Position numbers and translations under genes: made by a program
Shown here: positions 7,485-32,600 of the stretch, one piece after another
Layout: every line of letters begins with the position of its first letter
Position numbering within the stretch: the first letter of the stretch is position 1
Virus record (IMG/VR): IMGVR_UViG_3300025035_000063
Coordinates: 1 to 36,053 of that record
Reading direction: 5' to 3' (one strand)
Source: a virus
Taxonomy: Duplodnaviria > Caudoviricetes
Length of the DNA stretch: 36,053 bases
Notes under the pieces: generated by a model
What the model saw: only the letters and a program-made list of their open reading frames with translations
Told to the model about the DNA's origin: nothing
Database searches by the model: none

Positions 7485-8119
7485 CGTTTCCTCCAATCGT
7501 TTCCTGATACTCGTATCCCTACACACATCTGGGCCAGCCTGCTTTCGACACGCGCACCGAATCTGCCCCCGATAGTAGTCCCACGTGCCAGGTTCAGCGT
7601 GATGAGTGTTGGTAAGCTCTCATTATACCGCGCCATGATGATGGACTGGACTACATCCGTACGCCAGTCGGTATCCATCCCGGCTCCGAGGTCGTCCAGC
7701 AGCACGAGCGGCTCCATGTTTATGTCCGAGATATACCTCGTCGAATTTTGGCCGAACTCCTCTTTTATCTCATTGAATATCCGTGACATATCCACATACC
7801 GATATGATGGCGTCTTCTCTGCGACCTCCCTCAGAGCTGATATAGCCAGATGCGTCTTGCCAGTCCCGTTAGGACCTGCGAACAGGAGACCCTTCTTTAC
7901 CTCCGGGTAGCGTCTGCTCCACTCCCGCGCGCTATCCAGTGCTGTGGCCTGGTCGTCGGTCTGAGGTGTATATGACAAGAAACGACAATGTTGATATGCT
8001 GCGGGGATACCGGGCTCCCCCCTCGGCTCGCAGTCGCAGGGCGTGACATACTCCGTGCCGTCACGATAGATGTACTGGTACCCCTTACCATCACATTTTA
8101 CACACGATTTAGAGCTCAA
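7481..8119 (-). CDS. DnaC/IstB-like helicase loader ATPase
   Basis: N-terminal CxxC...CxC, Walker A GPNGTGKT, Walker B LLDDLG, RYNESLPTLITLN, SRL. Confidence 0.9.
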   Translation of the reverse strand: MSSKSCVKCDGKGYQYIYRDGTEYVTPCDCEPRGEPGIPAAYQHCRFLSYTPQTDDQATALDSAREWSRRYPEVKKGLLFAGPNGTGKTHLAISALREVAEKTPSYRYVDMSRIFNEIKEEFGQNSTRYISDINMEPLVLLDDLGAGMDTDWRTDVVQSIIMARYNESLPTLITLNLARGTTIGGRFGARVESRLAQMCVGIRVSGNDWRKR

Positions 8120-9192
8120 AACTCACCTCCCAGTAGGTCTCCCATACACGTGTTGATATCGTCCGTGTCAGTAGCCAGTGTCTTGCTATCCGACCTTTGC
8201 TTCGCACGGGTTGCCTTAATGCGCAGGTTGGACTCAGGCCCCATGTGGTGCCTGAGCTTCCTATCAGATAGCACCACATCACCCCAACTGAAACCATCTC
8301 GTCCAGGCTTAGACCCCTGTATATATTGGATCACCTCCAGTATCTGGTCCGGGGTATGCCCATCTCTGTCTATCATTAGGCGCATAGTCTGTTGATAGCG
8401 TGTTAGGTACTGCTCTCTATCCTGCTCCACCCGTTGCTTGTTCTTTCCGGCCATCCTCGACAGTACGTGTGAATACAGCGCCAATGCCAGATTTCGCGTG
8501 GTATCCGCATCCACCCCTCTTGTATGCTTCTGGTTCTTCTTCTGGTTCTTCTTCTGGTTCTTCTTCTGGTTCTTCTTCTGTTCCTGCTCCTGTTCCTGTT
8601 CCTGTTCCTGTTCCTGTTCCTGTTCCTGATGCCCGAATGATTGGGGTAATGATTGGGGTAATGATTGGGGTAATGATTGGGGTAATGATTGGGGGAATGA
8701 TTGGGGGAATGATTGGGGGAATGATTGGGGGAATGATTCCCCGAATGCTTTAGTATAGGATTCCATTTTGGAATCTGATACTGAGCTAAGTGTCTGATAT
8801 ACCATTGAATATATTTTGTTCTTCAATTCGCATTCTGGGATTGCGCAAAACGCCTTGCCCCACGCATAGAGGACATTTGGGTTCTGCGGTTTTTGGTAGG
8901 ACGCACTTTTTTTAAGGACTATCACACGCGCTGCCGTGTCATACTCAATCATTTCGCTTGCTGCAAGCTCGCCCAGCAGCTGCATCACTGACTCCACAGA
9001 CCAGCCGAGAGTCTCAGCGATAGAGAGCGGCCCCGCGACTACCACCCCCGGTATGATGATGCTGTGCTCACTCGTCAGCAGATATAGCCACAGTGCCTGA
9101 CCCGACGGCTTTAACCTTGACAGCCGTTGGAACGATGACCCGTACCGCCACATCCGCACGTACACCTTCCGGTAGATGCCTGGGTCATTCAT
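8116..9192 (-). CDS. Phage replication initiator (replisome organiser)
   Basis: YRKVYVRMW...QALWLYLLT winged-helix N-terminus, NPNV...IPECELK, repeat linker ending QEQEQE; directly upstream of the DnaC-like gene. Confidence 0.85.
   Translation of the reverse strand: MNDPGIYRKVYVRMWRYGSSFQRLSRLKPSGQALWLYLLTSEHSIIIPGVVVAGPLSIAETLGWSVESVMQLLGELAASEMIEYDTAARVIVLKKSASYQKPQNPNVLYAWGKAFCAIPECELKNKIYSMVYQTLSSVSDSKMESYTKAFGESFPQSFPQSFPQSFPQSLPQSLPQSLPQSLPQSFGHQEQEQEQEQEQEQEQEQKKNQKKNQKKNQKKNQKHTRGVDADTTRNLALALYSHVLSRMAGKNKQRVEQDREQYLTRYQQTMRLMIDRDGHTPDQILEVIQYIQGSKPGRDGFSWGDVVLSDRKLRHHMGPESNLRIKATRAKQRSDSKTLATDTDDINTCMGDLLGGEF
8527..8744. repeat. Nested tandem repeats inside the initiator gene; probable origin iterons
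   Basis: TTCTTCTTCTGG about x4, TTCCTG about x8, then ATGATTGGGG(T/G)A x8 at 8637-8732. Confidence 0.85.
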
Positions 9193-10064
9193 TTTTTCTT
9201 TCCTTCTATTGCCTTCTGAATCTTGTCGGCATTGTTTAGGGTCCTCGCCGTGGTCTCCAGAGCTTTTTGGTCGTATATTTCACCCTCGATGTACGGGTCA
9301 GGGTCACGGAGACCCGCTTCTATCGCCGTGGACACCCCGACCAGCTTCGACAAGCTGGATGACATGGGGATGTGCCGATGGTACAGCGCATTTAACAGAG
9401 TTTTCAGATACATAGCCTCCGTATCCGTCACCCACGGGCCGACAAGTTTACCGCTTTTGTCTCGGGATTTTGACCTGTCCTTTACAGCATCGAGGTCTTG
9501 CCTCGACTTAACTTCATGGACTGTGCCACCCGTCATGAGTCGGCATATTGCATAGCCGCAGATCATCTCGCCACGCTCATCCTCATCGAGTATAGGGGTG
9601 TGGGCGATGTCCCAGTTCCGACCTGCCCGGTACTCGAACCGCTCGTTTTTGTATACCAGTCGAACATCTTCATCTTTTACTAGGCCCAGTTCATACCCCC
9701 TCTTCACCAGCCCACGGTATCCAGGCTGCCATTGAGCCGCGTAGCATCGTCTCGCCCTGTCCCAGTAGGGGACGAGATACGCTTCCCCTGCCGGGGTATT
9801 GGGGATTAGGCCCATTTCCCCGGAGTGCATGAACCCGGATAGCACTGAGGATATATCACACTCAAGCAGGCGGGGGGTATTGCGGCAAGCCCCCCAAAAC
9901 ACGAGTGCGAGTCTCTTCGCCTCTCGCGCCGGGTCACGCCCAGCGATGCCGGTGGGGAGCACCTGCGCGAGTTGATTCACGAAAGCTTCACCGGTCAGCT
10001 GCGATTTCACCGCTTCGGCCCTCGCGATCTGTGTAGTAGTTCCTCTCTTTTCTAGGTCAGTCAT
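9189..10064 (-). CDS. recT: RecT-family single-strand annealing protein
   Basis: TPRLLECD, GLIPN...GEAYLVPY, GYRGL, GPWVTDTEAMYLKT motifs. Confidence 0.92.
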   Translation of the reverse strand: MTDLEKRGTTTQIARAEAVKSQLTGEAFVNQLAQVLPTGIAGRDPAREAKRLALVFWGACRNTPRLLECDISSVLSGFMHSGEMGLIPNTPAGEAYLVPYWDRARRCYAAQWQPGYRGLVKRGYELGLVKDEDVRLVYKNERFEYRAGRNWDIAHTPILDEDERGEMICGYAICRLMTGGTVHEVKSRQDLDAVKDRSKSRDKSGKLVGPWVTDTEAMYLKTLLNALYHRHIPMSSSLSKLVGVSTAIEAGLRDPDPYIEGEIYDQKALETTARTLNNADKIQKAIEGKKK

Positions 10065-11004
10065 AGCTAGCCCCCTTGATTGTGCACGAGATGGAACGTG
10101 ACTGTCTCATGTAGCGGTTAGCGACCTCAGGCTCAGCGGACTTCAGGGCCTTCACATCTACCCGGTTGCTGACAAGCTCCTTTATCCGCACAAGTAGGTC
10201 ATCTCCTGAATACGTACCCGGCTTCAGGTCATTTTTCAGCATAGTCTTTATCTCGTCTTCTCTTGCTTTCGCAGCTGATGCGATCTTGCCCTGCTCCGCG
10301 CATTCGATGATGAGGTCCCGGTGAGAAGCGGGCAGTTCATCGTGTGCATCATCCTCTGCCACGGTCTGGCTGATGTCTATCCCCTGCCAGCATGTCATCC
10401 GATACCGGCACCGGCGGCACCTATCATCCGACCAGTCGAGGCGCTCCGGATCGCTCATTTCTTCGTTGAAATGTCTTGCCATAGCCACAATATCCGCCAT
10501 TGTTCCAACATCAACGGGAATCGTCACCGGGAACCCTTCCCACCCATCAGCAGAAAACATATACAGGACTGCGAAGTCGAGACCCGCCAGATATGCCCCA
10601 TACGCCGCCTGAGCCGAGTACGACGCCGGGATGCCCTCGGTCTTGTATTTCCGATAGACATACGACGCCGGGCATTTTATTTCGAGCGTGCCGCTCTCCC
10701 CGTCTATCTCTACTATCCCGTCCACATGCGCGATAGTGGGGCCGTCCCCCACCTCTTTTTGCCGGGAGTGTATCCGTATATGTGGGTATTCCTCCAGCAT
10801 ATTCTCAATCGCCAACGTCTCCAGCTTTGTGCCACGTGTCATCGCCCGCTCCATCTGTATGGTATACTCGTAATCCGGGTCTACGCCCGATTTTACATAC
10901 CATAATCTGCGTGGACATCCCCAGTCCAGCCCCAGCATATCCGGGATATCAGACCCCCCGATATACCCGATTCGGTTCATAGTGCTCTTTTTGTCTGTAC
11001 TCAT
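10057..11004 (-). CDS. YqaJ/lambda-type exonuclease
   Basis: RIGYIGGSD, RGTKLE, AHVDG, LEIK, YSAQ, CRRCRYRMTC; paired with recT. Confidence 0.9.
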   Translation of the reverse strand: MSTDKKSTMNRIGYIGGSDIPDMLGLDWGCPRRLWYVKSGVDPDYEYTIQMERAMTRGTKLETLAIENMLEEYPHIRIHSRQKEVGDGPTIAHVDGIVEIDGESGTLEIKCPASYVYRKYKTEGIPASYSAQAAYGAYLAGLDFAVLYMFSADGWEGFPVTIPVDVGTMADIVAMARHFNEEMSDPERLDWSDDRCRRCRYRMTCWQGIDISQTVAEDDAHDELPASHRDLIIECAEQGKIASAAKAREDEIKTMLKNDLKPGTYSGDDLLVRIKELVSNRVDVKALKSAEPEVANRYMRQSRSISCTIKGASYD

Positions 11005-11031
11005 ACTGTCCTCCCTTGTTTGTCATTATGG

Positions 11032-11364
11032 TCACCGTCCGCCGTCCTTGACGTAGCATATACCGCCGTCCTTGACGTAGCATATACCGCCGCGCTGCTC
11101 GTTGCTGCCGCCGTCGGATACTTCACATATACCGCCGCGCTGCTCGTTGCGACCACCTTTGTGTATCCAGCATTTCCCGCCGTGCTGGGTACTGCGCCCG
11201 CCGTCGTGAACCTCACACGTGCCGGCGTACTGCTCATTGATGCCGCCGTTCTGCACGTTGCATGCGCCGCCGTGCTGGGTGACTGAGACGCCGTCTACTA
11301 CCCAGTCGCCTGCTTTGATGACCTGGCCATCCTTGGCCCTGCTCCAGCAATTTTTGCTATTCAT
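11032..11364 (-). CDS. 15-aa repeat protein C (5 units plus a half unit)
   Basis: GGAGGT RBS and own promoter; GGxNEQxGGxCxVxx repeats. Confidence 0.75.
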   Translation of the reverse strand: MNSKNCWSRAKDGQVIKAGDWVVDGVSVTQHGGACNVQNGGINEQYAGTCEVHDGGRSTQHGGKCWIHKGGRNEQRGGICEVSDGGSNEQRGGICYVKDGGICYVKDGGR

Positions 11365-11388
11365 TGGTACCTCCTATGTTAGATCCAT

Positions 11389-11417
11389 AATATATGACGC
11401 TTGTAGCGACATGTCAA
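11389..11417 (-). promoter_or_regulatory. Leftward sigma70-type promoter (repeat C, exo, recT, replication operon)
   Basis: TTGACA-17 nt-TATATT on the minus strand. Confidence 0.8.
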
Positions 11418-11449
11418 GGGAAAATATCGCTTTTGTAAAAAAAAATATG

Positions 11450-11477
11450 TTGCGAACCCGGGTAAAGGTGCTATACT
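11450..11477 (+). promoter_or_regulatory. Rightward promoter for the cro-like gene
   Basis: TTGCGA-16 nt-TATACT with extended TG and an upstream A9 tract. Confidence 0.65.
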
Positions 11478-11498
11478 GTATTGCAGGAGGAGGTGATC

Positions 11499-11723
11499 AT
11501 GGAATTAAAAGAATATTGCAAGAAAATCGGGTTTAAAAATATGAAACAATCAGCGCGGTTGGTATCTAACGCAATCGGCAAGGAGATGCCATACACTACA
11601 TTCCGTGCATACGCCTGTGGGGCGCGGAAGATGCGCTGGGAGACCGCCGTGCTGATCAGCAGGTGGAGTGGCGGGGCTGTCTCTATGGCAGACCTTGGCT
11701 ATGACATGGACGCGGTCGAGTAG
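11499..11723 (+). CDS. Cro-like HTH regulator
   Basis: MELKEY start, GARKMRWETAVLISRWSGGAVSMADL C-terminus typical of Cro/YdaS-like proteins; strong RBS GGAGGAGGTG. Confidence 0.75.
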   Translation: MELKEYCKKIGFKNMKQSARLVSNAIGKEMPYTTFRAYACGARKMRWETAVLISRWSGGAVSMADLGYDMDAVE

Positions 11724-12116
11724 ATGGAGGCCTTCACCGGGCTGTACAGACTATCCTACATCGTGACGGGTGTCGGGCGCGAACATCTCCCACCATGGTG
11801 GATGCGTGGGAGCTCACCAACTATGTACTATTTTGTGCAAAGGCAGAAGCGCCTGAGGATCATTAAAGTTGTGGTGCCGGATAAAGTCCATGTGGCCGTG
11901 CTCTCCAAACTTAGCTGTGGAAAACTGTGCTACGTAGTGGGGATATTGCTTGGCTCGTATCGTATCCCAGTCGCCCACTCCATCCAGCCCCTGGATGACC
12001 TCGCCTCGATGGAAGACGCTGCCGCTATCAGGGACGACAGAGGGGCAGGGCTGTTCATCCACAGATGGGCACCCGATAGCGGAAGTGTAGTCATAGGGGA
12101 CGAAGGGCGGCATTGA
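11724..12116 (+). CDS. Hypothetical protein, possible OB-fold
   Basis: Abuts the cro-like stop; VVVPDKVHVAVLSKLSCGKLCYVVGIL resembles an SSB-type OB segment. Confidence 0.5.
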   Translation: MEAFTGLYRLSYIVTGVGREHLPPWWMRGSSPTMYYFVQRQKRLRIIKVVVPDKVHVAVLSKLSCGKLCYVVGILLGSYRIPVAHSIQPLDDLASMEDAAAIRDDRGAGLFIHRWAPDSGSVVIGDEGRH

Positions 12117-12141
12117 TTGCCGCCCTCTTTCGCTCTTGCAT

Positions 12142-13290
12142 TCATCGCCTGTCGTCGTTGCGTCCGCCGCTCCGCACCTCACAAGTTCCGCCGTGCTGGG
12201 TACTGCGCCCGCCGTCGTGCACCTCACACGTGCCGGCGTGCTGCTCGTTGCTGCCGCCGTAGTGCACGTTACACATTCCGCCGTACTGCTCATTGATGCC
12301 GTCTTTGTAGACCCAGCACCGCCCGCCGTGCTGCTCGTTGCGACCACCGTTCTTGACGTAGCACGTGCCGGCGTACTGCTCATTGGTGCCGCCGCTCCAC
12401 ACCTCACATATACCGCCGCGCTGCTCGTTGCGCCCGCCTTCGAAGACATCACACGCTCCACCTTGTTGCTCATTGACGCCGCCGTTGTATACCCAGCACG
12501 TGCCGGCGTGCTGGGTACTGCGCCCGCCGTCGTACACATCACACCGTCCGCCGTCCTTGACGTAGCATATACCGCCGTCCTTGACGTAGCATATACCGCC
12601 GCGCTGCTCGTTGCTGCCGCCGTCGGATACTTCACATATACCGCCGCGCTGCTCGTTGCGACCACCGTCGTGGGCGTAGCACTTGCCAGCGTGCTGGGTA
12701 CTGTGCCCGCCGTCGTGGGCGAAGCATATTCCGTCGTGCTGCTCGTTGATGCCGCCCTTGAAGACCTCACACGCTCCGCCTTGTTGCTCATTGACGCCGT
12801 CTTTGTATACCCAGCACGTGCCGGCGCGCTGCTCGACATGCCCACCAGTGAGCACGTAGCACTCCCCACCGTGCTGGGTGACCCCGCCGACGCGAACAAT
12901 CACCCGGCCACTGTCTACATCTTCACCCTCACGGGCCACGGAGAACCCGAACCGGGGGAAAAAGTCATCTGGTATATCCTCATCTGCAGCGATGAGGCGG
13001 TAGCTACTGACGCAGATTTGATTCCGATCAATCATCACCCTGTCGCCCCGCCACTCGCATAGCTCGATGGTGGGACGTCTCAAGAGGCCAAGTTCATTGG
13101 CTTCTTCGTCTATTCCGAAAACCCCTCCGCATGCCTCGCGATCGGGTGTGCCTGTCCAGTCCGTTGAGTCGTTCCAGATGCCGACCCGGGTTCGCATGAA
13201 GCCCCCATATGAGACCCCCCGCTCACTCGCCCGAAGAAAGAGCCTGTCAGGGTTGACCCGGTACCTGCCTATCTTAGTCAGTTCGTGCAT
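12142..13290 (-). CDS. 15-aa repeat protein B with N-terminal globular (DUF7666-like) domain
   Basis: GGAG RBS (ATG 13296 or 13290); ~120-aa unique domain then 15 full and 2 half repeat units. Confidence 0.8.
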   Translation of the reverse strand: MHELTKIGRYRVNPDRLFLRASERGVSYGGFMRTRVGIWNDSTDWTGTPDREACGGVFGIDEEANELGLLRRPTIELCEWRGDRVMIDRNQICVSSYRLIAADEDIPDDFFPRFGFSVAREGEDVDSGRVIVRVGGVTQHGGECYVLTGGHVEQRAGTCWVYKDGVNEQQGGACEVFKGGINEQHDGICFAHDGGHSTQHAGKCYAHDGGRNEQRGGICEVSDGGSNEQRGGICYVKDGGICYVKDGGRCDVYDGGRSTQHAGTCWVYNGGVNEQQGGACDVFEGGRNEQRGGICEVWSGGTNEQYAGTCYVKNGGRNEQHGGRCWVYKDGINEQYGGMCNVHYGGSNEQHAGTCEVHDGGRSTQHGGTCEVRSGGRNDDRR

Positions 13291-13299
13291 TTCCATCTC

Positions 13300-13362
13300 C
13301 TATATGAGAAAAAAGATTAATATTATTAATATCGCTAATAACAGCCGCGTTGCCGTTCTCAT
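13300..13362 (-). CDS. 20-aa hydrophobic peptide MRTATRLLLAILIILIFFLI
   Basis: ATGA-coupled to the upstream 51-aa ORF; its TAG abuts the RBS of repeat gene B; below the ORF-track cutoff. Confidence 0.5.
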   Translation of the reverse strand: MRTATRLLLAILIILIFFLI

Positions 13363-13514
13363 TTGCCGCGCCCGACCGGGCTGACGGCAATCAATACCCC
13401 CCTGACCGACCGCGCTTGTCTTGCGGCGTCAGCCCGGTCTGACACGTACCACCGTTCCCGGACAAGCTTCACCCGCCCGGCGGACATGATAGCTCTTTCA
13501 ATTACTGCCAACAT
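13359..13514 (-). CDS. 51-aa basic hypothetical protein
   Basis: AGGAGGTG RBS; MLAVIERAIMSAGRVKLVRERWYV...GRGK; fills the gap between repeat genes A and B. Confidence 0.6.
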   Translation of the reverse strand: MLAVIERAIMSAGRVKLVRERWYVSDRADAARQARSVRGVLIAVSPVGRGK

Positions 13515-13520
13515 CTCAAT

Positions 13521-14165
13521 TCACCTCCTGTTAAAGTATCCACCGCTGAGCACATGGCACTGGCCGCCGTGCTGCTCATCGTATCCGGCTTTCAACACAT
13601 GGCACTCGCCGCCGTACTGCTCATTTTCGGCGTCCTCAAGGACGTAGCACGTGCCGGCGTACTGCTCATTGATGCCGCCGGCGTGAACCTCACATATACC
13701 GCCGCGCTGCTCGTTGTCGCCGTCTTTTAAAACGTAGCACTCGCCGCCGTACTGCTGATTGGTCCCGCCATCAATGACGGTGCACCATCTGCCGCCGTGC
13801 TGCTTATTGCTGCCGCAGTCGGATACCTCACACGTGCCGCCGTGCTGCTCGTTGATGCCGCCGTAGTACACGTAGCACGCTCCGCCGTGCTGCTCGTTGA
13901 TGCCGTCTTCGAGGACGTGGCTTATACCGTCGTACTGCTTGTTGTGCCCGCCGGAGTGAAGCTCACACTCCCCGGCGTGCTGCTCGTTGATGCCGCCGTT
14001 CTGCACGTAACACCGCCCTCCGTACTGGTCGTTGCGTGCGCCAAACAACACCTCACACGTGCCGCCGCGCTGGGTGACTGAGACGCCAGCCGCTACCCAG
14101 TCGCCTGCTTTGATGACCTGGCCATCTTGCGCCATTTCTCGAGAATTTTCAATGAAATTTGTCAT
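13521..14165 (-). CDS. 15-aa repeat protein A (12 units)
   Basis: AAGGAGGT RBS and own promoter; same repeat and N-cap as protein C. Confidence 0.8.
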   Translation of the reverse strand: MTNFIENSREMAQDGQVIKAGDWVAAGVSVTQRGGTCEVLFGARNDQYGGRCYVQNGGINEQHAGECELHSGGHNKQYDGISHVLEDGINEQHGGACYVYYGGINEQHGGTCEVSDCGSNKQHGGRWCTVIDGGTNQQYGGECYVLKDGDNEQRGGICEVHAGGINEQYAGTCYVLEDAENEQYGGECHVLKAGYDEQHGGQCHVLSGGYFNRR

Positions 14166-14182
14166 GGCTACCTCCTTCTAAT

Positions 14183-14211
14183 AATATAGCTCAGTGTTTA
14201 CTGTTTGTCAA
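14183..14211 (-). promoter_or_regulatory. Leftward sigma70-type early promoter
   Basis: TTGACA-17 nt-TATATT on the minus strand; the -35 lies inside the palindrome ACTGTT-N4-AACAGT (14200-14215). Confidence 0.8.
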
Positions 14212-14292
14212 CAGTTTTTTCGATATTATTACACTTTTTTTTATCTCTTGTGTTCTTCTGCTCCTTCTTCTTTTTCTGTTCCTGATGCCCGG

Positions 14293-14430
14293 ATGATTGG
14301 GGTAATCAGTAGGGGAATGATTAGGGGAATGATTAGGGGAATGATTAGGGGAATGATTAGGGGAATCATTATGGGAATGATTAGGGGAATCATTATGGGA
14401 ATCATTATGGGAATCATTGGGGGAATGATC
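14293..14430. repeat. Non-coding 12-bp tandem array homologous to the initiator-gene repeats
   Basis: 11 units of ATGATTAGGGGA / ATCATTATGGGA / ATGATTGGGGTA. Confidence 0.9.
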
Positions 14431-14496
14431 TAAGTGCCTGATATACCATTAGTTGCGGCACCGTTTAGGGTATATCACCACGTTTTTAGGTGCTTT

Positions 14497-15000
14497 AAAG
14501 AGACAGAGAAAGAGAAAGAGAAGCAGAAAGAGACAGAGAAAGAGAAAGAGAAGCAGAAAGAGAAAGAGAAAGAGAAAGAGAAAGAGAAAGAGAAAGAGAA
14601 AGAAAAGCGCGTGGTAAGAAAAAAGAAAGTTGGAGAGAAGGAGAGGAGAGGGAGAGAAGGAGAGGAGAGGGAGAAGGAGAGAAGGAGAGAAGAAGAAAGA
14701 CAGTCTCTTATATCTTTGAGAGAAGGTATATCTGAGAAGAGATACAGAGAGAGAGGGGGAGAGAGAGGGAGGGAGAGGGAGAGGGAGAGAGCACGCCTCC
14801 CCCTCTTTTTCTTCTCTCCTCTTCTCCCACTCCACCCCTCTGGAAGGAGACCCCTTCCCACATCTTCCCTGGCCCGCCGTGAGAGAGTGAGAGCGCCCCT
14901 GTCTTGGACCCCCTTCCCGATCCTCAGACAGAGAATTAACACCCCCCCCCCATGGCCCCGTCCCTCTCTTCCCCTATGTATTGACCCCCTCCCCAACACA
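14497..15000. repeat. Polypurine tract (AAAGAG array, GA-rich) followed by a pyrimidine-rich tract
   Basis: AAAGAG repeats 14497-14606, GA-rich to ~14790, then CT-rich to ~15000 including C10 at 14942-14951. Confidence 0.85.
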
Positions 15001-15010
15001 CAGTAATTTA

Positions 15011-15039
15011 TTGACACAGAGCCCATCAGGCCCTATACT
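15011..15039 (+). promoter_or_regulatory. Rightward sigma70-type promoter 1
   Basis: TTGACA-17 nt-TATACT. Confidence 0.75.
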
Positions 15040-15094
15040 CTCAATACCCCCCTTACCCCCGATTGGCCTCGTGGAGAGATTCACGGGGCCTTTC

Positions 15095-15123
15095 TTGACA
15101 TTACGGGATGGGTGGGTTATATT
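15095..15123 (+). promoter_or_regulatory. Rightward sigma70-type promoter 2
   Basis: TTGACA-17 nt-TATATT. Confidence 0.75.
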
Positions 15124-15132
15124 CTGCGTGAG

Positions 15133-16860
15133 ATGGCAAACAAATCACTCGGTCGCGAAACAATGATACTCACGAGGCGAAAATGGGTGGGACGTGACCC
15201 GTCGGACATCCTGCTTACCCTGCGCGACTCGCATGAGCCCTTACTTCGCAAGCTGATTGAGAGTGCTCCCTTCGCTTTATACCGGGAGCAGTTCAGGTTC
15301 GGGCCGGATACCGGATGGGCGTGGGCGCTGCGGTGGATGATTGAGAATCGGCTTGTGTTCCTGCTCAAAGAGGTCATGGGCATGGATTGGATGGGTGATT
15401 TCCACATACACGGAGAGACGGGCATGCTCAGGATGTACGAGAAGGCACAGTCCTGCGGCAGATATAACCGTATCCTGTCCATGTGGCCCCGCGGCTATGG
15501 TAAGAGCACCTACCTGACAGTTGGCGGTACTATTCAGCGCATCCTGAAGAATCCGGAGATGCGTGTTGGTATTGGCAGCTGGCGTGTTGACCTCGCAGAG
15601 AAGTTTGTATTCGCCATCTCGGAAGAGCTTATGGGGAATGACATTATCCGTGAGCTATACCCCGATGTCATATGGGATTCCCCGAAGCAGTCACCCCGGT
15701 GGACGGTGCAGAAGGGCCTTCAGGTGATTCGCAAATCACGGGATAAAGACCCGTCCATTATGCCATTCTCGATATTTAACCTGCCAACCGGTTCGCATAT
15801 GCATATCCTCTGCCTCGATGACATTGTCACACTGGAGAACGCGGATTCCGACGCCATGCAGAGGCAGGTTGACACCGCACTAAAGAACGTTTCCAACTTC
15901 CTCACCTCACCCCATGACCCAATCCACTGGACAGGTACGACTTACGGGTTCAACGACGCTGTGAATAAGGCGAAAGAGGACAGGAATTGGCTTCTCCTGT
16001 TCCGCAACTGCTGGGAGCCGGGCCTTGCCTGGAAGAAGGCGTCATACCCGGAACGCTATGACATCCCGGAGCTGACTCAGAAGTACAAGGAGGATGGCCC
16101 GTACTCATTCGCCGCCAATATGGAGCTTACCCCCGTCATCGATTCCGACCGCACATTAAGGGCCGAATGGCTGACCGAGGTAAAATACGTTCCGCCTGAT
16201 ATTGACCTGTACATGGGCGTTGACCTCGCCTTTACGTCCGGTAAGAATTCCGACCGCTCAGCTATCCTTGTCGCCGGTATCACCCCATCGAGAACGAAGC
16301 TGTACCTCGTTGACGGTATCGTGTTGAAGGCCGGTATCGAGGAGGTAATCCAATATCTGGTGTCTCTCGGTAAACAATACCAACATAAGATAATTATGGC
16401 AGGTATCGAGCTGATTTCAGGGGCGCAGGGTATTGAGCCATCCATAAGGCAGGCCCTCATCGAGGCGAATGTTCCGCTCCCCATCACGGTTATCAAGGGC
16501 TATAGCCAGACCACACCAACGAAGAATGTCAGGATAGAATCCTTTCTCGCCCCAATCATGTCACGGGGCGATATCGTCCTGACAAGACAGTTCAAGGACG
16601 CCCACCCCGATATGGAGCTCCGTGTTTATCCGGAGCTGATACAGGAGATTAACCAGTTCAAGCGGAAGGGCCATGACGACATCCTCGACGCCATTGTTGA
16701 CATCCTTATGGTGTGCCCTCCCCTCGGTAACCACCCTGAAAAATATAAAATAAACGAGAAAAGAATTGACAGAAAGGATTTTTTGCGCATATTATCGTCA
16801 AAGGGGCATAAAAAACCCATTAAGCCAGCGCGACATAGCGTGTCAGGGCGTTGGAGGTAG
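15133..16860 (+). CDS. terL: Terminase large subunit
   Basis: Walker A PRGYGKST, Walker B ILCLDD, TGT coupling motif, nuclease GVDLA...SD and HDDILDA; start uncertain (15133 or 15163). Confidence 0.93.
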   Translation: MANKSLGRETMILTRRKWVGRDPSDILLTLRDSHEPLLRKLIESAPFALYREQFRFGPDTGWAWALRWMIENRLVFLLKEVMGMDWMGDFHIHGETGMLRMYEKAQSCGRYNRILSMWPRGYGKSTYLTVGGTIQRILKNPEMRVGIGSWRVDLAEKFVFAISEELMGNDIIRELYPDVIWDSPKQSPRWTVQKGLQVIRKSRDKDPSIMPFSIFNLPTGSHMHILCLDDIVTLENADSDAMQRQVDTALKNVSNFLTSPHDPIHWTGTTYGFNDAVNKAKEDRNWLLLFRNCWEPGLAWKKASYPERYDIPELTQKYKEDGPYSFAANMELTPVIDSDRTLRAEWLTEVKYVPPDIDLYMGVDLAFTSGKNSDRSAILVAGITPSRTKLYLVDGIVLKAGIEEVIQYLVSLGKQYQHKIIMAGIELISGAQGIEPSIRQALIEANVPLPITVIKGYSQTTPTKNVRIESFLAPIMSRGDIVLTRQFKDAHPDMELRVYPELIQEINQFKRKGHDDILDAIVDILMVCPPLGNHPEKYKINEKRIDRKDFLRILSSKGHKKPIKPARHSVSGRWR

Positions 16861-26617: not shown

Positions 26618-29600
26618 ATGAGCGACGAACCGGATAGAACGATAGCCGAAGAGGAAGACCCAAACGCTGCATACGTCCAGAATTTCCGTTCATTTCTGGA
26701 CGATAAGCGGCCTGCGTTCGACGCTATCGCCCATTCTGACTGGTGGGACGACCAGCCTGAGCAAGCGAAAAAAAGGCTGAAACTGGAATATTGGTCATGG
26801 GTGAAGTCACAGCCTGAATTTAAGGGGATTGACCAGAAGGCATATAAGGATTACATATTCAAGCAGGGCTTTCTGGACCAGCAGGGCCGTGCGCTCGGTG
26901 GCGCTTTTATGGAGGGCGCTGGTAGCGGCGGTCAGCTTCTTGGCAAGGTGTTTAATAAGCTGAACCCGGTTCTATTGCCTGTGACATTGGCAACTCAGAC
27001 CACTAAATTACTGAACCCGCCTACGGATGAACTGCCGATTGATGTTATCTCTGGCGCACTGCGCGAGGGAGGCAAGGAAGCCTCCAGAATCGGGCAGCGT
27101 ATGCAAGTGACGAATCGGCCCGAATCTAATATCGCTGAGGGCATTTTAAAGACGGAATCCGGTGTCGTTCGTGGCGCAACGGAATTGTGGAAGTACATGG
27201 CGGCTACTATGGCAGGTGGCCCTATCGCCGGTTTTGCGGGGCTTGGTATGTTAGAGGAGATAGACCCAGATATCCCACCTCAGGACCAATGGAAGAAGGT
27301 GTTAGAGGCGGGGCTGAGCGCGGCGGCAATGGGGGCTGTGTTTAAGTGGGCCGAACCATTGAAGCCATTGGTGAAGTCACTGGTAGTTGGCGGTTATGGA
27401 GCGGCAGTAACGAAGGCGAATGGCGGGACCTATACGGACTCCATAGCGCAGGGGACATCGCTTGTTCTACTCTCTGCGGCAAGCCCACGCAACAAAAACG
27501 CTGAGCTCGGTTTTGTTGAGAAAATCGGCGCTGACATACAGGCGGCGAAACATGTTTACCGCAAAGTTACGAACGCCAGCGCAGAACTTCGCGCTAAAGC
27601 GTCTAATCTCGCTGGCAGGATGAAGGCGGGCGAGGCGAAGGAGGAAGAGTTTTCCTCATTTGTTGATGACGTGAAAAATGAAATCCTCACAGACCCGGAG
27701 ACAACCGCTGAGATTGGGAAGGAATTTGATTCCGCTATTACAAACAATTTGACGAACAGACCGGTGAAGGAAGTTTTAGATGCGGCTGTTTCAGCGGACA
27801 CACATGAGCAGACAGCCAAACAGGAATTTATACAAGAGGCGAAACGGAAGGCTACAAACCAGTATGTGGAAGAATTACCCGCGGGCGTATCCGATACCAT
27901 GTCAGGGGTGCTGAAATCACTTGGCGCGGAAGCCGCGGATATTGAGCCGGTCATGCTGACTGAGATGGAACGACTCGCTGTTCTGAATGAGGGGCAACCT
28001 GAGTTGGTGATAGAGGCGTTGGGTATTGACACTGGATGGTCAACTCGCACTGCGGAGAATATGTTGATGGACATGGGTGTCCCGGCGAGTGAACAGCGTG
28101 TCTCGAAAGTAGCGAGGTTAATCAGTGAGCAGAAAATAGCGCCGGAAGACGTTTCCAGCCCCACTGATACTTCATTGCTGACCGTTGTTGACCGTTCAAG
28201 AATTAGAGATTATATTGATAGGCCGGGTAATGAACTTGACCCGACTATCCGCAAGGCACTGGACAAGGCTTCGCGCGGCGTCCGTGTCCCGGGGAAGTAT
28301 GCTAAGAGCGTACTTGATGTTGTTGACTCCTTCAGAGCCGATGCCCGCGCTGATATTAGGGGCAGATTGAAGGGCACCAAAGAAGCGGAAGGCGATTATA
28401 TACCATCAACAATGATGGATACGTCAGCAGTATCAGAAGATGTTGCAATGAATGCCTTTGACACGACTGTGGAGAAAACCGTTAATCATGTCAGAGGCAA
28501 CGTTATCCCCGCAGACAATGTGATTATGGTGGTAGACCCTGAGACCGCAAGCGGGTCACTCCAGTTGCCTGATACCCCGATAGGCAGGGGCGCTTCCACA
28601 AGGCCAATAACCGTGAAAAGGAGGGGCGAGCTTGAAGATTCCCTGAAACAGAATCTGGACACCGCGAGGTCAGCGGGTGATTCTCCAATCGCGCCTGATA
28701 CTGTTGTTGAGTTAGGAGGAATGGATATTCTCACGGGCGAAGAAGGGTATTTGAATAAGGAGACGGTCGGGCATGAGCGTCCATTCTATGCACTCGAAGC
28801 TGACAAACAGGTGGATGTCCCGGTACATGGCGAGCGTCGCATGGCCCCGGTTGCGGTAATCGCTCCCGTAGAAAGAATATTACCCGGTAAGGCCGGTAAG
28901 GGAAAAGTCAGAATTGACCCTGACACCCCGACCAGCGAGCTTTTGTATATGCTGGGCGATGACCCCCGTGTGTATACACGGGACGAAGCACGCGCCGCCA
29001 TCGAACAGAGGAACGCTGTCGCCGCTAAACATGTTGACGAACTTGCGCCTGCAAGTAGGGCAAAACATAATGTGCTGGTAGATGTAAAGCCGGAATCGCG
29101 TGGGCCGGGCGGAGAGCCGATGGTAACGGCGAAGTCTTTAGAGAACGGCAACGTTATCATGCCTGACGGGAGAAGCGTCAGCATGGAGCAGTATCGCGCT
29201 GAGTTTAAGAGACATCGAGCCCAGAACCCAACTGTCCGGAAATTCCGGAGAGTTGCAGATGCTATCCGTGACGGGGAGAACGTACCGGACAAAATACTTG
29301 ACCAGTATCCCGCGTTGAAGGATATGTATGAGGACGAACTCAACGCGATACGCAGCATAAAAGACCCGTCTGAACGGGCAGGCGCTATCAGAGCTATACG
29401 AGCGAGGAAAGCGCTCCCACGAGGATATGCCACGAAGAGCAAATTTATGCTTGCTGAAATGGGCGACGATGGCCGTGTCACCGTGTCTGATACACGCATT
29501 TTCGGGAGCGCTATTGACGCGTTCAATGCCAGAGGTGGCGAGCAGGTTGTGATTAAAGTATCGCCATCAAGGTTCCCGCCGGGCACTACACACACCGGGG

Positions 29601-32600
29601 ATATTAAGCAGACGAAAGATGGGACTGTCCTCACACTGGAGCAGACACCGCCGCCGGGTTCAATTACAAAGATATGGAAGAACCGGAAATGGCATGATAT
29701 TAAGGTCGAGGAATCAACCGACCCCATATACCGGGAACTGGATGGTGACGCCAACCGGCAACAGTTTAGCAGAGCGAACAACGATGAGCCGAACCACGTG
29801 ACACCGGACAAGGCAGCGTACACAACCATGGTTTCAAGGCAGGATGTAGTTGACGCGGTAAATCGGAAGACATTGTTCTCGGTGCGGTCTGGTGTTGAAG
29901 GCGAAGCATCTGGCGCAAGTTACGGCAACAAAGTAATTTACCTTAGCCGCTCAGGTGATATTGGAAGGCTGGCGCACGAGTTGGCCCATGGCGCGGAAGA
30001 TGTCCTGCAACTGAGGTTAGACAGATACGAGTCAATGCTAAAAATCAATGGCCTTCAAAGCAGCGCGGAGGGGTTCGCCGAGTTTTCAAGGCTCTGGTGG
30101 ACAAACCGCAAAATGGCCAAGAGCATGTTCCCGGAATTTTATGCCACGTTCAAGTCAAAATTCTATGGTCATAATACCGAATTGACGAAGCTCTATAATA
30201 TTGTGGATGAGTATTATTCAGCGTACCGTAACCAGCCCTATTTTCAACAGTTTATGGCGCAAATCGAATTTGACCCGCACCTCAGGGAGACACGTAAGGC
30301 GTCACTGAAAACGGTGTTCGGGCTTGAGATGACGAGCCAGTATTATCATGTGGAGCAACTGGCAGCTAAGTATAGGCTTTCGAGACCTGAATTGGAGTTT
30401 ATACAAAAGACTCTGTACGTTCTTGCCCCGCAAACCGATGCGGCGGTCATGGGGATATACGGCGTTGAGGGCTACAAGCCGATTGATATAGATATGGTTG
30501 AACATCCTGAGATTACGCCATTTTCTTATTTCTCGAACAAGTATTCTGATTTTAGTTGGAAGGCATATTTAAAGTCCGGTGGCGAATATGGGCTTGTCAC
30601 AAACGATTCCGGCATGGAGTTTTCCGCGTTCATGCAGGCGTTATCAGTATTGCATGAAGGTGTGGATTTGTCAGCCTCTCAATTCTTTGACACGTACTCT
30701 GTGACCCGCCAGCAGGCGGCGGATATGGTCAGATATGTAAGGAGCAAGCCGAATGGCAAATCGCTGGAAGCGGAGTATCTGTCTGATGCGAAGAAATTAC
30801 GCCAGCTCTTTGAGTTTGCGACTGACCAGCTTGTAGATTCTGGGTTAATATCAAAGGAAGAGGCGGACTCAAGAATAAATAAGGGGTACAAATTCCATGC
30901 CATCTTGAACCGGGTACAATCCACCATTGGTTCTCCGACTGTGTTCCAACCCGGTAATGTAGCCCCCGATTTTTTCAAGGTTCGGCACGGGTCAACAGAG
31001 AAGATTGTTGGTTATCTCGACGCGTACAGGGCGCTGATACCGAAGATGATGAGAACCGCGTTTGAGAACGTGAAGCAGCGGAAACTGGCGGAGTTTTATA
31101 GGGGACTGCCAGACAGCGAAGCATTCGTCAAGCATATTAAACCGGATAGTATTCTGGAGAGCCCTTCAGGTGATTCCGGTAAGGTGCTTTCTATTATAGA
31201 GAGTGTTGTTGACGGGTCAAAGGATGGTATAAACGTTAAAGCAGTAGAAGAGCTTCTTGAGACAAAGCGCGGTCATTCATGGGACTTATTCGATATGCAA
31301 ACATCAGGTGACAGGTACATGAAATATTATGATGACGGCAAGCCTGTTGTCCATCAGATACTTGACCCTGACACCCATGCTCAAATGCTGTACTTGAAGC
31401 CGGAACATTATGCTGAGGTAAACAAATTCGTCAAGGCTCTCCATTTTATATTCTCGGAGACGGCGAGCCTGAGCCGTGTGGCATTTACAAAGAACCCGAT
31501 ATTCCCATTATGGAATATGCCACGTGACACCGCTACACGTATGGCAACCACCGAGACCGGTGGACTTGGATTACCGACACTCCGCAAGGCCATCAAAGCG
31601 ATTGCGACGAATGACCCCATCGTTAGGCAGTGCCTGACCGATACGAATATGATGGGTTTCGCTTCACGTTCGCGGTCGAGTATGGACAAGGCGTTGTATA
31701 GGACGAAGGGGAGCATCACGGACAAGGTGGTTGCGAAGTATCAGGCATACCATGAGAATATGGAGTTGGTGAACAGACTCGCCGAGTACATCGGGGGGGT
31801 TGAGAAGTACGGCAACACAACCGAGGGCAGGGTTAAGGCGGCTTGGGACGCGCTGGACGTAACGTTGAATTTCCGCAGGATGGGTAAGATGGGCGGGAAA
31901 ATCAACCAGTATGTCCCCTTCTTTAATGCCGGTTTGCAGGAGCTATCGAAGATTGGTCGTCTGTTGTCTGACCCACGAACCCGGATGAGATTTGTCATAA
32001 AGGGCTTGCTGACATCAGCCCTATTGCAGGGTACTTTGGACTATGTACACCACGGGAAGGATTGGTATGATGACAGGTCAAAGTTTTTGAAAGCGACAAC
32101 GTACACCATCGCGAATGTGAATGGATATACCATATTCCTCCCGAAGCCATTTGCTATCGGCGCCATCTACTCTTCTATTGGGGAGTTGGCGGCGGTTCCG
32201 CTCACGACTGGCAAGCTTCCAACATTGAAAAATATGCAGAGCATCGCCAAGCGGGCTTGGACGCCAGTTGTGCCGAATCTAAGCGCTCCGGTCCCGTCTG
32301 CGGCGCTGGAGCTTGCGATGAATCTGAATAGGTTCATGGGGATACCCATCGAATCCAAGTCAGATGTTGATGACAATGTGCCGAAGAGGTATAGATTCAA
32401 CTCGTACACGCCAGCGTTTCTCGTATCGTTAGGGCCGATGCTGGAGAAGGTGAATATGTCACCGGCTCAGGCCGACTATGCGATACAGAAGTTCACGGGG
32501 GTTATGGGCCGCATTTTTGAAGACGCGGTGGATGGGCTGTATGGCAATCTTGGCGGCGATGTCGCGAAGCCTGCACCGGGTCGCGAGGGCTGGGCGGCTC

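What the first reader, a model, noticed from the sequence alone, without database searches (positions are those of the whole stretch)
11032..14165. Three mosaic paralogues of a 15-aa Gly/Gln/Cys solenoid repeat at the head of the early operons
Seen: genes A (12 units), B (15 units plus a unique N-domain) and C (5 units) share GGxNEQxGGxCxVxx, with a nearly fixed G/Q/C/V framework and variable H/Y/W/R/E positions. C carries A's 5' cap DNA but B's internal tracts. A and C are each the first gene behind an identical TTGACA-17-TATATT promoter, and C leads the exo-recT operon. Inference: these are beta-roll/solenoid proteins with Cys and Gln ladders and a variable surface, diversified by unit shuffling (plausibly through the adjacent RecT/YqaJ). 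They could be an RT-independent repertoire of early host-takeover or anti-defence binders, or metal-binding proteins. Function is unknown.
Basis: partly seen in the sequence, partly recalled or inferred. Interest (0 to 1): 0.85.

Follow-up and report, generated by a model that had tools for sequence, protein, structure and literature searches.

The report
Recombining phage repeat rods, ART-like head
A groundwater phage carries three related genes built from a 15-residue repeat whose number, order and gene copies differ between co-occurring strains; the proteins are predicted to be rods with variable surfaces, one of them capped by a head that likely has the fold of ADP-ribosylating enzymes, so they would be a fast-changing set of binders used against the host, which is untested.

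Summary
The three genes, the 15-aa/45-nt unit, the mosaic tracts and both promoters are real; only the promoter hexamers are identical, not the spacers. Four strain contigs from metagenomes differ in unit number (A-type 8, 11, 12, 17; B 11, 15, 16), unit order and gene copy number. Linkage decays inside the unit, so recombination made the mosaics. The dominant haplotype is stable in four runs, and positive selection is not shown. AlphaFold2 gives a beta-solenoid with two strands per unit (closest solved fold TibA, Z 21). B's 'unique' N-domain is not unique: it is a remote DUF7666/phrog_18079-like head, and all 25 weak structural matches (Z 2-4) have the ADP-ribosyltransferase fold. A and C are headless, keeping only the family's cap. 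Most likely these are early host-binding rods, B with an NAD-related head and A and C as headless binders and unit donors, shuffled by ordinary phage recombination (RecT inferred). No dedicated diversifier was found. This scan has noted the DUF7666-plus-solenoid class on other DNA. New here: the 15-mer unit, the three-paralogue layout and strain-level shuffling with gene duplication. Function is untested.

The parts
13521..14165 (-). Gene A: headless solenoid, 26-aa cap plus 12 units, pI 4.9
   Evidence: identical in L001 and L003; A-type genes with 8, 11 and 17 units in L005/L006
12142..13296 (-). Gene B: head, cap, 15 units and two half units
12943..13296 (-). Head of B (about residues 1-118): DUF7666/phrog_18079-like, predicted ADP-ribosyltransferase-like fold; invariant R22, W41, G58, E81
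12169..12891 (-). Solenoid of B, two predicted beta-strands per 15-aa unit
11032..11364 (-). Gene C: headless, cap plus 5 units and a half unit; first gene before exo-recT
   Evidence: different units 2-3 in L003
14183..14211 (-). sigma70-type promoter consensus TTGACA-17-TATATT before A, followed by a GGAGG ribosome site
   Evidence: kept in L003, L005, L006
11389..11417 (-). sigma70-type promoter consensus TTGACA-17-TATATT before C (different spacer)
   Evidence: kept in L003
11033..11157 (-). 125-nt tract of C identical to B 12542-12666, including the 24-nt half-unit duplication
12542..12666 (-). 125-nt tract of B identical to the 3' end of C; L003 has a regular unit here instead of the duplication
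14093..14126 (-). 34-nt cap tract of A identical to C 11298-11331
13359..13514 (-). 51-codon ORF between A and B, conserved in three strains, no Pfam or NCBIfam match
11481..11723 (+). 80-aa gene divergent from C with its own promoter-like site (11450-11477); looks like a small regulator (inference), no family match
10057..11004 (-). YqaJ/RecE-like exonuclease directly behind C
9189..10064 (-). RecT single-strand annealing protein

Best explanation
Three paralogous phage genes whose 45-nt units recombine and vary in number, order and gene copy between strains encode predicted beta-solenoid rods that likely act early in infection as variable binders of host proteins, B with a likely ADP-ribosyltransferase-fold head and A and C without it. 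Shown: the genes, the strain variation, recombination inside units, purifying selection on the core positions, and the remote DUF7666-like kinship of the head. Predicted: each unit gives two strands; Asn4/Gln6/Cys11/Val13 face inward, and positions 3/5/7 and 10/12/14 form two outer faces, the second rich in Tyr/Trp/His/Phe (read from strand alternation, not from coordinates). Inferred: early expression from the two strong promoters; the rod selects a host target, probably a defence or host-control protein; B's head then uses or binds NAD or ADP-ribose; A and C act as plain binders or decoys and as donors of units; homologous recombination and gene conversion between units, probably helped by the neighbouring RecT/YqaJ pair, renews the surfaces. 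Odds for the steps: real genes 0.97, solenoid 0.9, recombination as source of the mosaics 0.9, ART-like fold 0.7, host-binding role 0.5, catalytic head 0.3.
For: Fold: B model pLDDT 88.9, two strands per unit; best solved match TibA55-350, Z 21.4, rmsd 2.1, 219 aligned. Head: model pLDDT 88.0; 25 of 48,161 chains reach Z 2 and all 25 are ART-fold proteins by title or by my knowledge (Arr, Tpt1, TreTu, PARPs, an anti-CRISPR); top viral matches are DUF7666 proteins, E 4.6e-4 and 1.0e-3; 12 of 53 relatives scanned hit DUF7666 weakly through the head and 21 of 53 hit phrog_18079; Atlas top three clusters are DUF7666 at 0.85-0.86 (lead only). The same head carries rods of period 15 to 22 in relatives and resembles heads fused to ankyrin repeats in giant viruses: a head-plus-exchangeable-repeat design. 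Variation: 102 unit copies from the window and four strain contigs give 69 distinct DNA units and 68 distinct peptides; 394 of 496 site pairs fail the four-gamete test; linkage falls with distance, rho -0.31, permutation p 0.0002; core pN/pS 0.07. L003 is identical to the window outside repeats but differs in B and C units; L006 has two A genes in tandem; L004 has a duplicated B end. Context: a distant relative sits directly before an exonuclease gene in another phage (L011). Known: Rad52-like recombinases including RecT promote exchange between diverged sequences (PMC3945230, abstract); a phage ART can be an anti-defence enzyme (AcrIF11, 10.1101/2024.08.26.609590, abstract).
Against: All head matches are Z 2.0-4.0, a range the tool calls a possibly common arrangement; the head profile finds no solved protein by sequence. 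The canonical H-Y-E or R-S-E triad (recalled) is not evident. The window's B lacks two residues kept in 35 of 38 relatives (C53, K93), so its head may be degenerate. Two of three genes have no head. Orthologous A units 4-12 stay in the same order between lineages about 7% apart (8 of 8 units compared), with pN/pS 0.24 overall and 0.68 at variable positions: no positive selection shown. The window haplotype recurs without differences over long unitigs in four runs and in L001, so turnover is not per-generation hypervariation. RecT/exo genes lie in the early region of many phages (established knowledge), so adjacency says little. No target, host or expression data.
Confidence: 0.42

Rival explanations
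1. The head is a non-catalytic ART-like domain (a nucleotide-, nucleic-acid- or protein-binding pseudo-enzyme), and the rods serve mainly as self-associating scaffolds; A and C would co-assemble with B rather than act alone.
For: Non-canonical active-site residues and loss of C53/K93 in the window strain; pseudo-enzymes are among the matches (TASOR, PARP13); the closest rod folds, TibA and Ag43, are self-associating adhesins (title for 4kh3; established knowledge).
Against: R22, W41, G58 and E81 are invariant in 38 of 38 heads, which suits a ligand pocket; a scaffold does not need 68 different unit peptides.
Confidence: 0.22
2. Only the bulk properties of the rod matter (acidic, Cys/His-rich: a DNA mimic or a metal sponge), and the variation is a neutral by-product of repeats lying in a recombining phage genome.
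For: A and B are acidic (pI 4.9, 5.4) with 12 and 20 Cys and 11 and 14 His; face positions 10/12/14 have pN/pS 1.26 over unique units, near neutrality; orthologous variable positions give 0.68; unit number ranges from 5 to 17.
Against: Cys positions are predicted to be buried; aromatic residues are common on one face; at positions 3, 5, 7 and 10 nearly every frequent amino acid uses one codon while Gly2, Gly9 and Val13 use all four, which suggests young amino-acid alleles spread by copying (Gly1 and Gly8 are also nearly monomorphic, so this is only suggestive); three or more gene copies are kept in a compact genome.
Confidence: 0.22
3. The rods are virion or cell-surface adhesion proteins (receptor binding or superinfection exclusion) that vary with the host surface.
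For: Fold matches to adhesins and to a tail protein of phage Andhra (Z 19.0, rmsd 6.0).
Against: The genes lie on the replication/recombination strand opposite the virion genes; no signal peptide or membrane segment is visible in the sequences; beta-helix matches are generic.
Confidence: 0.07
4. The variation, or the genes themselves, are artefacts: misassembly of repeats, or shadow frames of the + strand 308-codon ORF.
For: Strain contigs are short (1.4-3.5 kb). B::C and C::B fusion proteins in the database break at exact repeats, and the stretch between B and C shows no loss of depth in four runs, so these fusions are probably misassemblies or rare.
Against: 41 of 67 distinct units do not occur in the window and differ from the nearest window unit by 6.4 nt on average, which misassembly of one haplotype cannot give; P0001 from another source closely resembles L004's B; runs X7 and X13 hold many alternative alleles across B's head and the arrays; synonymous-biased change, promoters, ribosome sites and homologues all follow the - frame; the + ORF has no family match and antisense frames carry stops.
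Confidence: 0.04

Closest known systems
DUF7666 (PF24703) / phrog_18079 / phrog_15773 phage proteins with repeat rods
   Same: Remote head homology; head plus beta-solenoid; early-region context.
   Different: B scores no DUF7666 hit itself and its head relatives stay under the 27-bit cut-off; 15-aa two-strand unit with Gln and Cys ladders; two headless paralogues, each first behind a strong promoter; a Cys-rich head subfamily.
Small ART-fold proteins: Arr, Tpt1/KptA, TreTu/TreX, AcrIF11
   Same: Predicted topology of the head (Z up to 4.0, rmsd 3-5 over 70-90 residues); AcrIF11 is a phage ART used against defence (abstract; that 6kyf is AcrIF11 is recalled).
   Different: No sequence match; catalytic triad not evident; fused to a variable rod.
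TibA / Ag43 autotransporter passenger beta-helices; YdcK beta-solenoid repeat (PF18836)
   Same: Gly-Gly-turn beta-solenoid, Z 21.4 and 18.6; the relative in L011 passes the PF18836 cut-off, 76.8 against 30 bits.
   Different: No signal peptide or beta-barrel; A, B and C themselves do not hit PF18836.
Diversity-generating retroelements and shufflons
   Same: A pool of related sequence cassettes and a variable binding surface.
   Different: No reverse transcriptase found; no invertase or integrase among 43 ORFs scanned against Pfam; all copies are direct and coding; changes are recombined tracts and copy-number changes.
T4 RIIB (with RIIA, counters RexAB; PMC13716836, passages)
   Same: RIIB proteins appear among weak structural matches of the head (E 0.2-0.3); the CSRGLH motif aligns with CGGGFH.
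   Different: Profile match not significant (E 0.09, probability 0.6%); RIIB has an HTH and no rod.

Membership tests
DUF7666 (PF24703) | Pfam gathering score of 27 bits or more | tested here: not met
   No hit for A, B or C; 12 of 53 relatives score 14.7-25.9 bits; only P0063, found through its repeats, passes (54 bits).
DUF7666 (PF24703) | Same fold and motifs (G.S..GF.W, W..A.DW, CG.G.H, E, K) | tested here: met
   Top viral structure matches E 4.6e-4 and 1.0e-3; profile against P0063 probability 83%, E 9e-6 over 25 columns; Atlas clusters.
ADP-ribosyltransferase superfamily | Split beta-sheet ART fold | tested here: inconclusive
   25 of 25 rows are ART-fold, but Z is only 2.0-4.0; for 2aua, 2jqn, 6kyf and CNFy the fold assignment is recalled.
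ADP-ribosyltransferase superfamily | Catalytic triad H-Y-E or R-S-E (recalled) in strands 1, 2 and 5 | tested here: inconclusive
   Invariant R22 and E81, H or F at 60, K at 93; no residue-level structural alignment was available to place them.
ADP-ribosyltransferase superfamily | NAD-dependent ADP-ribose transfer | not testable with these tools
   Needs an enzyme assay.
Diversity-generating retroelement | Reverse transcriptase gene | tested here: not met
   PF00078 finds 0 matches in the record; controls ring in 3 of 14. The record is classed as linear, 43% complete by CheckV, although both ends lie in tail-like genes and the longest contig holding the same exonuclease is 36,810 nt.
Diversity-generating retroelement | Template/variable repeat pair differing at adenines | tested here: not met
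   All repeat copies are coding; differences are whole-codon alleles of all base types and recombined tracts.
Shufflon / invertible cassette system | Site-specific recombinase and inverted cassettes | tested here: not met
   All units are direct repeats on one strand; no such recombinase among 43 ORFs scanned.
YdcK beta-solenoid repeat (PF18836) | Pfam cut-off of 30 bits | tested here: not met
   No hit for A, B or C; the relative in L011 passes.
Self-associating autotransporters (TibA, Ag43) | Signal peptide and C-terminal beta-barrel | tested here: not met
   The proteins end within 10 residues of the last unit; no autotransporter family hit.
T4 RIIB | Significant homology and an N-terminal HTH | tested here: inconclusive
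   hhalign E 0.09; structural E 0.2-0.3; B has no HTH hit.
Known anti-phage defence proteins | PADLOC model match | tested here: not met
   0 hits for 7 of 7 proteins.

The most novel reading that the evidence does not exclude
A phage-encoded, reverse-transcriptase-free repertoire of target-programmable effectors: 45-nt units traded among several early genes by the phage's own annealing recombinase rewrite two binding faces of a beta-solenoid, which steers an ADP-ribosyltransferase-fold head (B) or acts as a decoy (A, C) against host defence proteins. It would be the phage counterpart of variable repeat receptors and would assign a function to the very large DUF7666-plus-solenoid class.
Probability: 0.15. 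Interest if true: 0.9.

Novelty: new variant of a known kind. Interest (0 to 1): 0.58.

Why it matters
Head-plus-solenoid early proteins are widespread in phages and catalogued only as domains of unknown function; 'DUF7666' has 0 hits in the paper library. This locus offers a natural experiment: the same head with different rods, headless copies, and strains that differ almost only in the rods. That makes two open questions testable: whether the DUF7666-like head is an NAD-using enzyme, and whether rod sequence sets the target. If so, a large family of phage 'hypothetical proteins' would be a recombination-diversified arsenal, and the 15-residue two-faced rod a possible binding scaffold.

Tried and rejected
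No match for A, B or C in Pfam, PHROGs or PADLOC, and only one sub-cut-off NCBIfam hit for A; none in solved sequences or in annotated phages by tblastn with A or with the head relative P0050. The Atlas gave only unnamed viral clusters at 0.79-0.80 for A. No longer fused form of the head among proteins of 509-2000 aa (weak evidence). IMG/VR scans found only one contig of this phage and no relative of the exonuclease. L002 is the window's own record and was not counted as support. No RNA holder was listed among 24 runs; this says nothing on expression. A fold of B with A could not be run because the queue was full, so co-assembly is untested. Rfam found nothing in 10900-15200; the A-B spacer folds with z -2.4, not followed further. 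RIIB kinship is not established. B::C and C::B fusion records (P0003, P0068, P0069, P0071, P0018) were set aside as possible misassemblies. From the 65 hits, 12 were left out before the family scans: three from this phage population or chimeric with it (P0002, P0004, P0018), one fragment (P0064) and eight low-complexity matches. The head and A-orthologue comparisons were out of register and were replaced; only the all-unit rows are used. Those are pairwise, uncorrected and not independent, so values above 1 were not taken as proof of selection. The seven joints were laid at 85% likeness and may come from sister strains or repeats; they were not counted as rearrangements. Paper searches with no hit; with listed hits that looked unrelated by title and abstract start.
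Full report
Setting. The window is the whole record G000 (36,053 nt): a tailed phage with terminase, SU10-type portal, capsid and adaptor genes on the + strand, and exonuclease (YqaJ), RecT, replication initiator, DnaC-like loader, HTH and resolvase genes on the - strand. All 24 listed runs that hold 9200-16000 are groundwater or aquifer metagenomes. The record is classed as linear and 43% complete. Both ends lie in open tail-like frames and the longest contig with the same exonuclease is 36,810 nt, so I infer that it is nearly whole.

Observation. A (214 aa, 12 units), B (384 aa, 15 units plus two 8-aa half units) and C (110 aa, 5 units plus a half unit) are as described. Lag-45 identity is 0.60-0.63 against at most 0.43 in 2000 codon shuffles per gene. 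C shares 34- and 33-nt exact tracts with A in its first half, and 32- and 125-nt tracts with B after that. The 125-nt and 34-nt tracts appear as separate unitigs at about twice the local depth in runs X1 and X24, so both copies exist. TTGACA-17-TATATT precedes A and C, with different spacers, and a third copy precedes the terminase on the other strand. Each gene has a GGAG(G) ribosome site. The promoter of A is kept in L003, L005 and L006. The - frame is the coding one: its core positions change synonymously (pN/pS 0.07), and it has homologues. The 308-codon + strand ORF has no family match.

Variation among strains. A scan of metagenome contigs gave 5 loci from 64 candidates; L002 is the window's own record. 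L003 matches the window exactly over 3.5 kb except in repeats: B has a regular sixteenth unit where the window has the 24-nt duplication, and C has other units 2-3 (near the contig end, so less secure). L004-L006 belong to a lineage about 93% identical outside the arrays. L005 has an A gene with 8 units, L006 two A genes in tandem with 11 and 17 units, and L004 a gene ending like B followed by a B with 11 units in another order. P0001, from another source, is close to L004's B but differs in units 1-3. The 102 unit copies caught by my pattern give 69 distinct DNA units and 68 distinct peptides, and 394 of 496 pairs of informative sites show all four gametes. Linkage falls with distance inside the 45 nt (rho -0.31 over 359 pairs, p 0.0002 in 5000 permutations), which is the mark of recombination in short tracts. 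At positions 3, 5, 7 and 10 each frequent residue is nearly always one codon: alleles arose once and were copied around.

Results against fast or adaptive change. L001 has A and the first 229 codons of B unchanged, with 5 mismatches in 9.6 kb elsewhere. Long unitigs identical to the window occur in all four runs laid. A units 4-12 are collinear with L006's first A gene (8 of 8 units compared), with pN/pS 0.24, 0.04 at framework and 0.68 at variable positions; the head gives 0.30-0.44. Over distinct units, positions 3/5/7 give 3.7 and 10/12/14 give 1.3, but these pairs are not independent. Database proteins that fuse B to C or C to B break at exact repeats, and depth between B and C is not reduced (the tool warns that depth is no copy number), so I treat them as probable misassemblies.

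Structure. AlphaFold2 on a 38-row alignment gives B a mean pLDDT of 88.9: a head of about 118 residues, then two short strands per unit, with the half units absorbed as extra strands. The rod is closest to TibA55-350 (Z 21.4, rmsd 2.1, 219 residues), then a tail protein of phage Andhra and Ag43; a shared fold shows no function. By alternation along the strands, Asn4, Gln6, Cys11 and Val13 point inward, and 3/5/7 and 10/12/14 outward; I could not inspect coordinates. The N-terminal 'cap' of A and C (AxDGQVI...W.V.G.V) matches the linker between head and rod in B and in distant relatives, so A and C are headless members.

The head. A search of 1.84 billion representatives with B gave 65 hits. 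I aligned 35 of them as head relatives, with B, P0001 and P0070 making 38 rows; their rods have periods of 15 to 22. A second, unrelated head type carries a very similar 15-aa QSGGxC rod. Of 53 hits scanned, 13 match DUF7666, 12 of them below the cut-off, and 21 match phrog_18079. The head model (pLDDT 88.0) matches DUF7666 proteins best among viral structures, then N-terminal parts of giant-virus ankyrin proteins and, weakly, RIIB. Against 48,161 solved chains, 25 reach Z 2 and none reaches 5. All 25 have the ADP-ribosyltransferase fold by title or by my knowledge of them; for four entries that assignment is recalled. The scores are low and the unanimity is the evidence. R22, W41, G58 and E81 are invariant in 38 of 38 rows; C53 and K93 are kept in 35 of 38 and in L004-L006 but not in the window's B. 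The profile match to T4 RIIB is not significant.

Context elsewhere. In L011 a relative with a 17-aa rod of the same design lies directly before an exonuclease and passes the YdcK repeat cut-off. A relative of the second head type lies between repressor genes and an AAA-domain gene in PP511522. L012-L014 give too little flank to judge.

How it most likely works. The promoters before A and C would give early expression. The rods would present two variable faces to a host protein; B would add an NAD-related head; A and C would bind without it and supply units. Recombination between the roughly 60% identical units rewrites the faces, changes rod length and duplicates genes. That RecT-type proteins favour exchange between diverged sequences is reported (PMC3945230, abstract read); their role here is inferred only from adjacency. 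That phage ARTs and rIIA/rIIB act against defence systems is reported (10.1101/2024.08.26.609590, abstract read; PMC13716836, passages read). PMC7824862 (passages read) treats rIIB as a transcription factor and, in those passages, does not describe this head. I give the whole chain 0.42; the rivals are a non-catalytic scaffold (0.22), bulk properties with neutral variation (0.22), an adhesion role (0.07) and artefact (0.04).

Novelty. It is not a DGR or a shufflon. It fails the DUF7666 cut-off but is a remote relative. Library searches found no paper on DUF7666 or on this design; subscription papers are mostly missing from the library and I opened no supplementary files, where family tables could list these proteins. 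Earlier notes of this scan describe DUF7666-headed 8- and 9-residue rods, headless paralogues and an RIIB/ART lead on other DNA; none matches this sequence or genome. So the class is catalogued but uncharacterised, and this is a new variant: a 15-mer Gln/Cys unit, three paralogues at the heads of two early operons, and shuffling and gene duplication seen directly among co-occurring strains. Interest 0.58.

Noticed in passing
window 14251-14450 and 8596-8805: The spacer upstream of A holds a 76% identical copy (212 nt, E 6e-41) of the inner part of the replication-initiator gene, including its 12-bp repeat array (8.7 copies in the gene, 11.4 upstream of A). It could be a second iteron-like site; the copy number differs in L003.
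   Followed up: partly
window 11001-11040: C's stop falls where B's shared tract reads a Cys codon, and another frame runs on to a stop that overlaps the exonuclease start; C may have been shortened by the tract shared with B.
   Followed up: partly
L004, L005, L006 heads of B: Within the sister lineage the heads differ almost only by amino-acid changes (7 non-synonymous and 0 synonymous, 5 and 1). The numbers are too small to call selection.
   Followed up: partly
P0017, P0023, P0031, P0042, P0043, P0049, P0054, P0061, P0029: A second head type (MC..S....S..DSHE..I...L.D) without a convincing Pfam match carries nearly the same 15-aa QSGGxC rod; three phage records hold relatives.
   Followed up: partly
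window 13359-13514 and 13365-13460: A conserved 51-codon ORF between A and B overlaps a long inverted repeat; the spacer folds at -80 kcal/mol, z -2.4.
   Followed up: partly
window 8116-9192: The replication initiator carries runs of FPQS/LPQS, QE and KKNQ repeats.
   Followed up: no
window 26618-33118: A 2166-aa protein with an LPD38 domain, typical of injected polyvalent proteins.
   Followed up: no
window 33337-33446: Three 36-nt repeats encoding poly-Gly linkers near the start of the 978-aa open-ended tail-like gene.
   Followed up: no
BFVD matches: Giant-virus ankyrin and DUF4116 proteins appear to share the same head fold, which suggests that the head-plus-repeat design extends beyond phages.
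   Followed up: no
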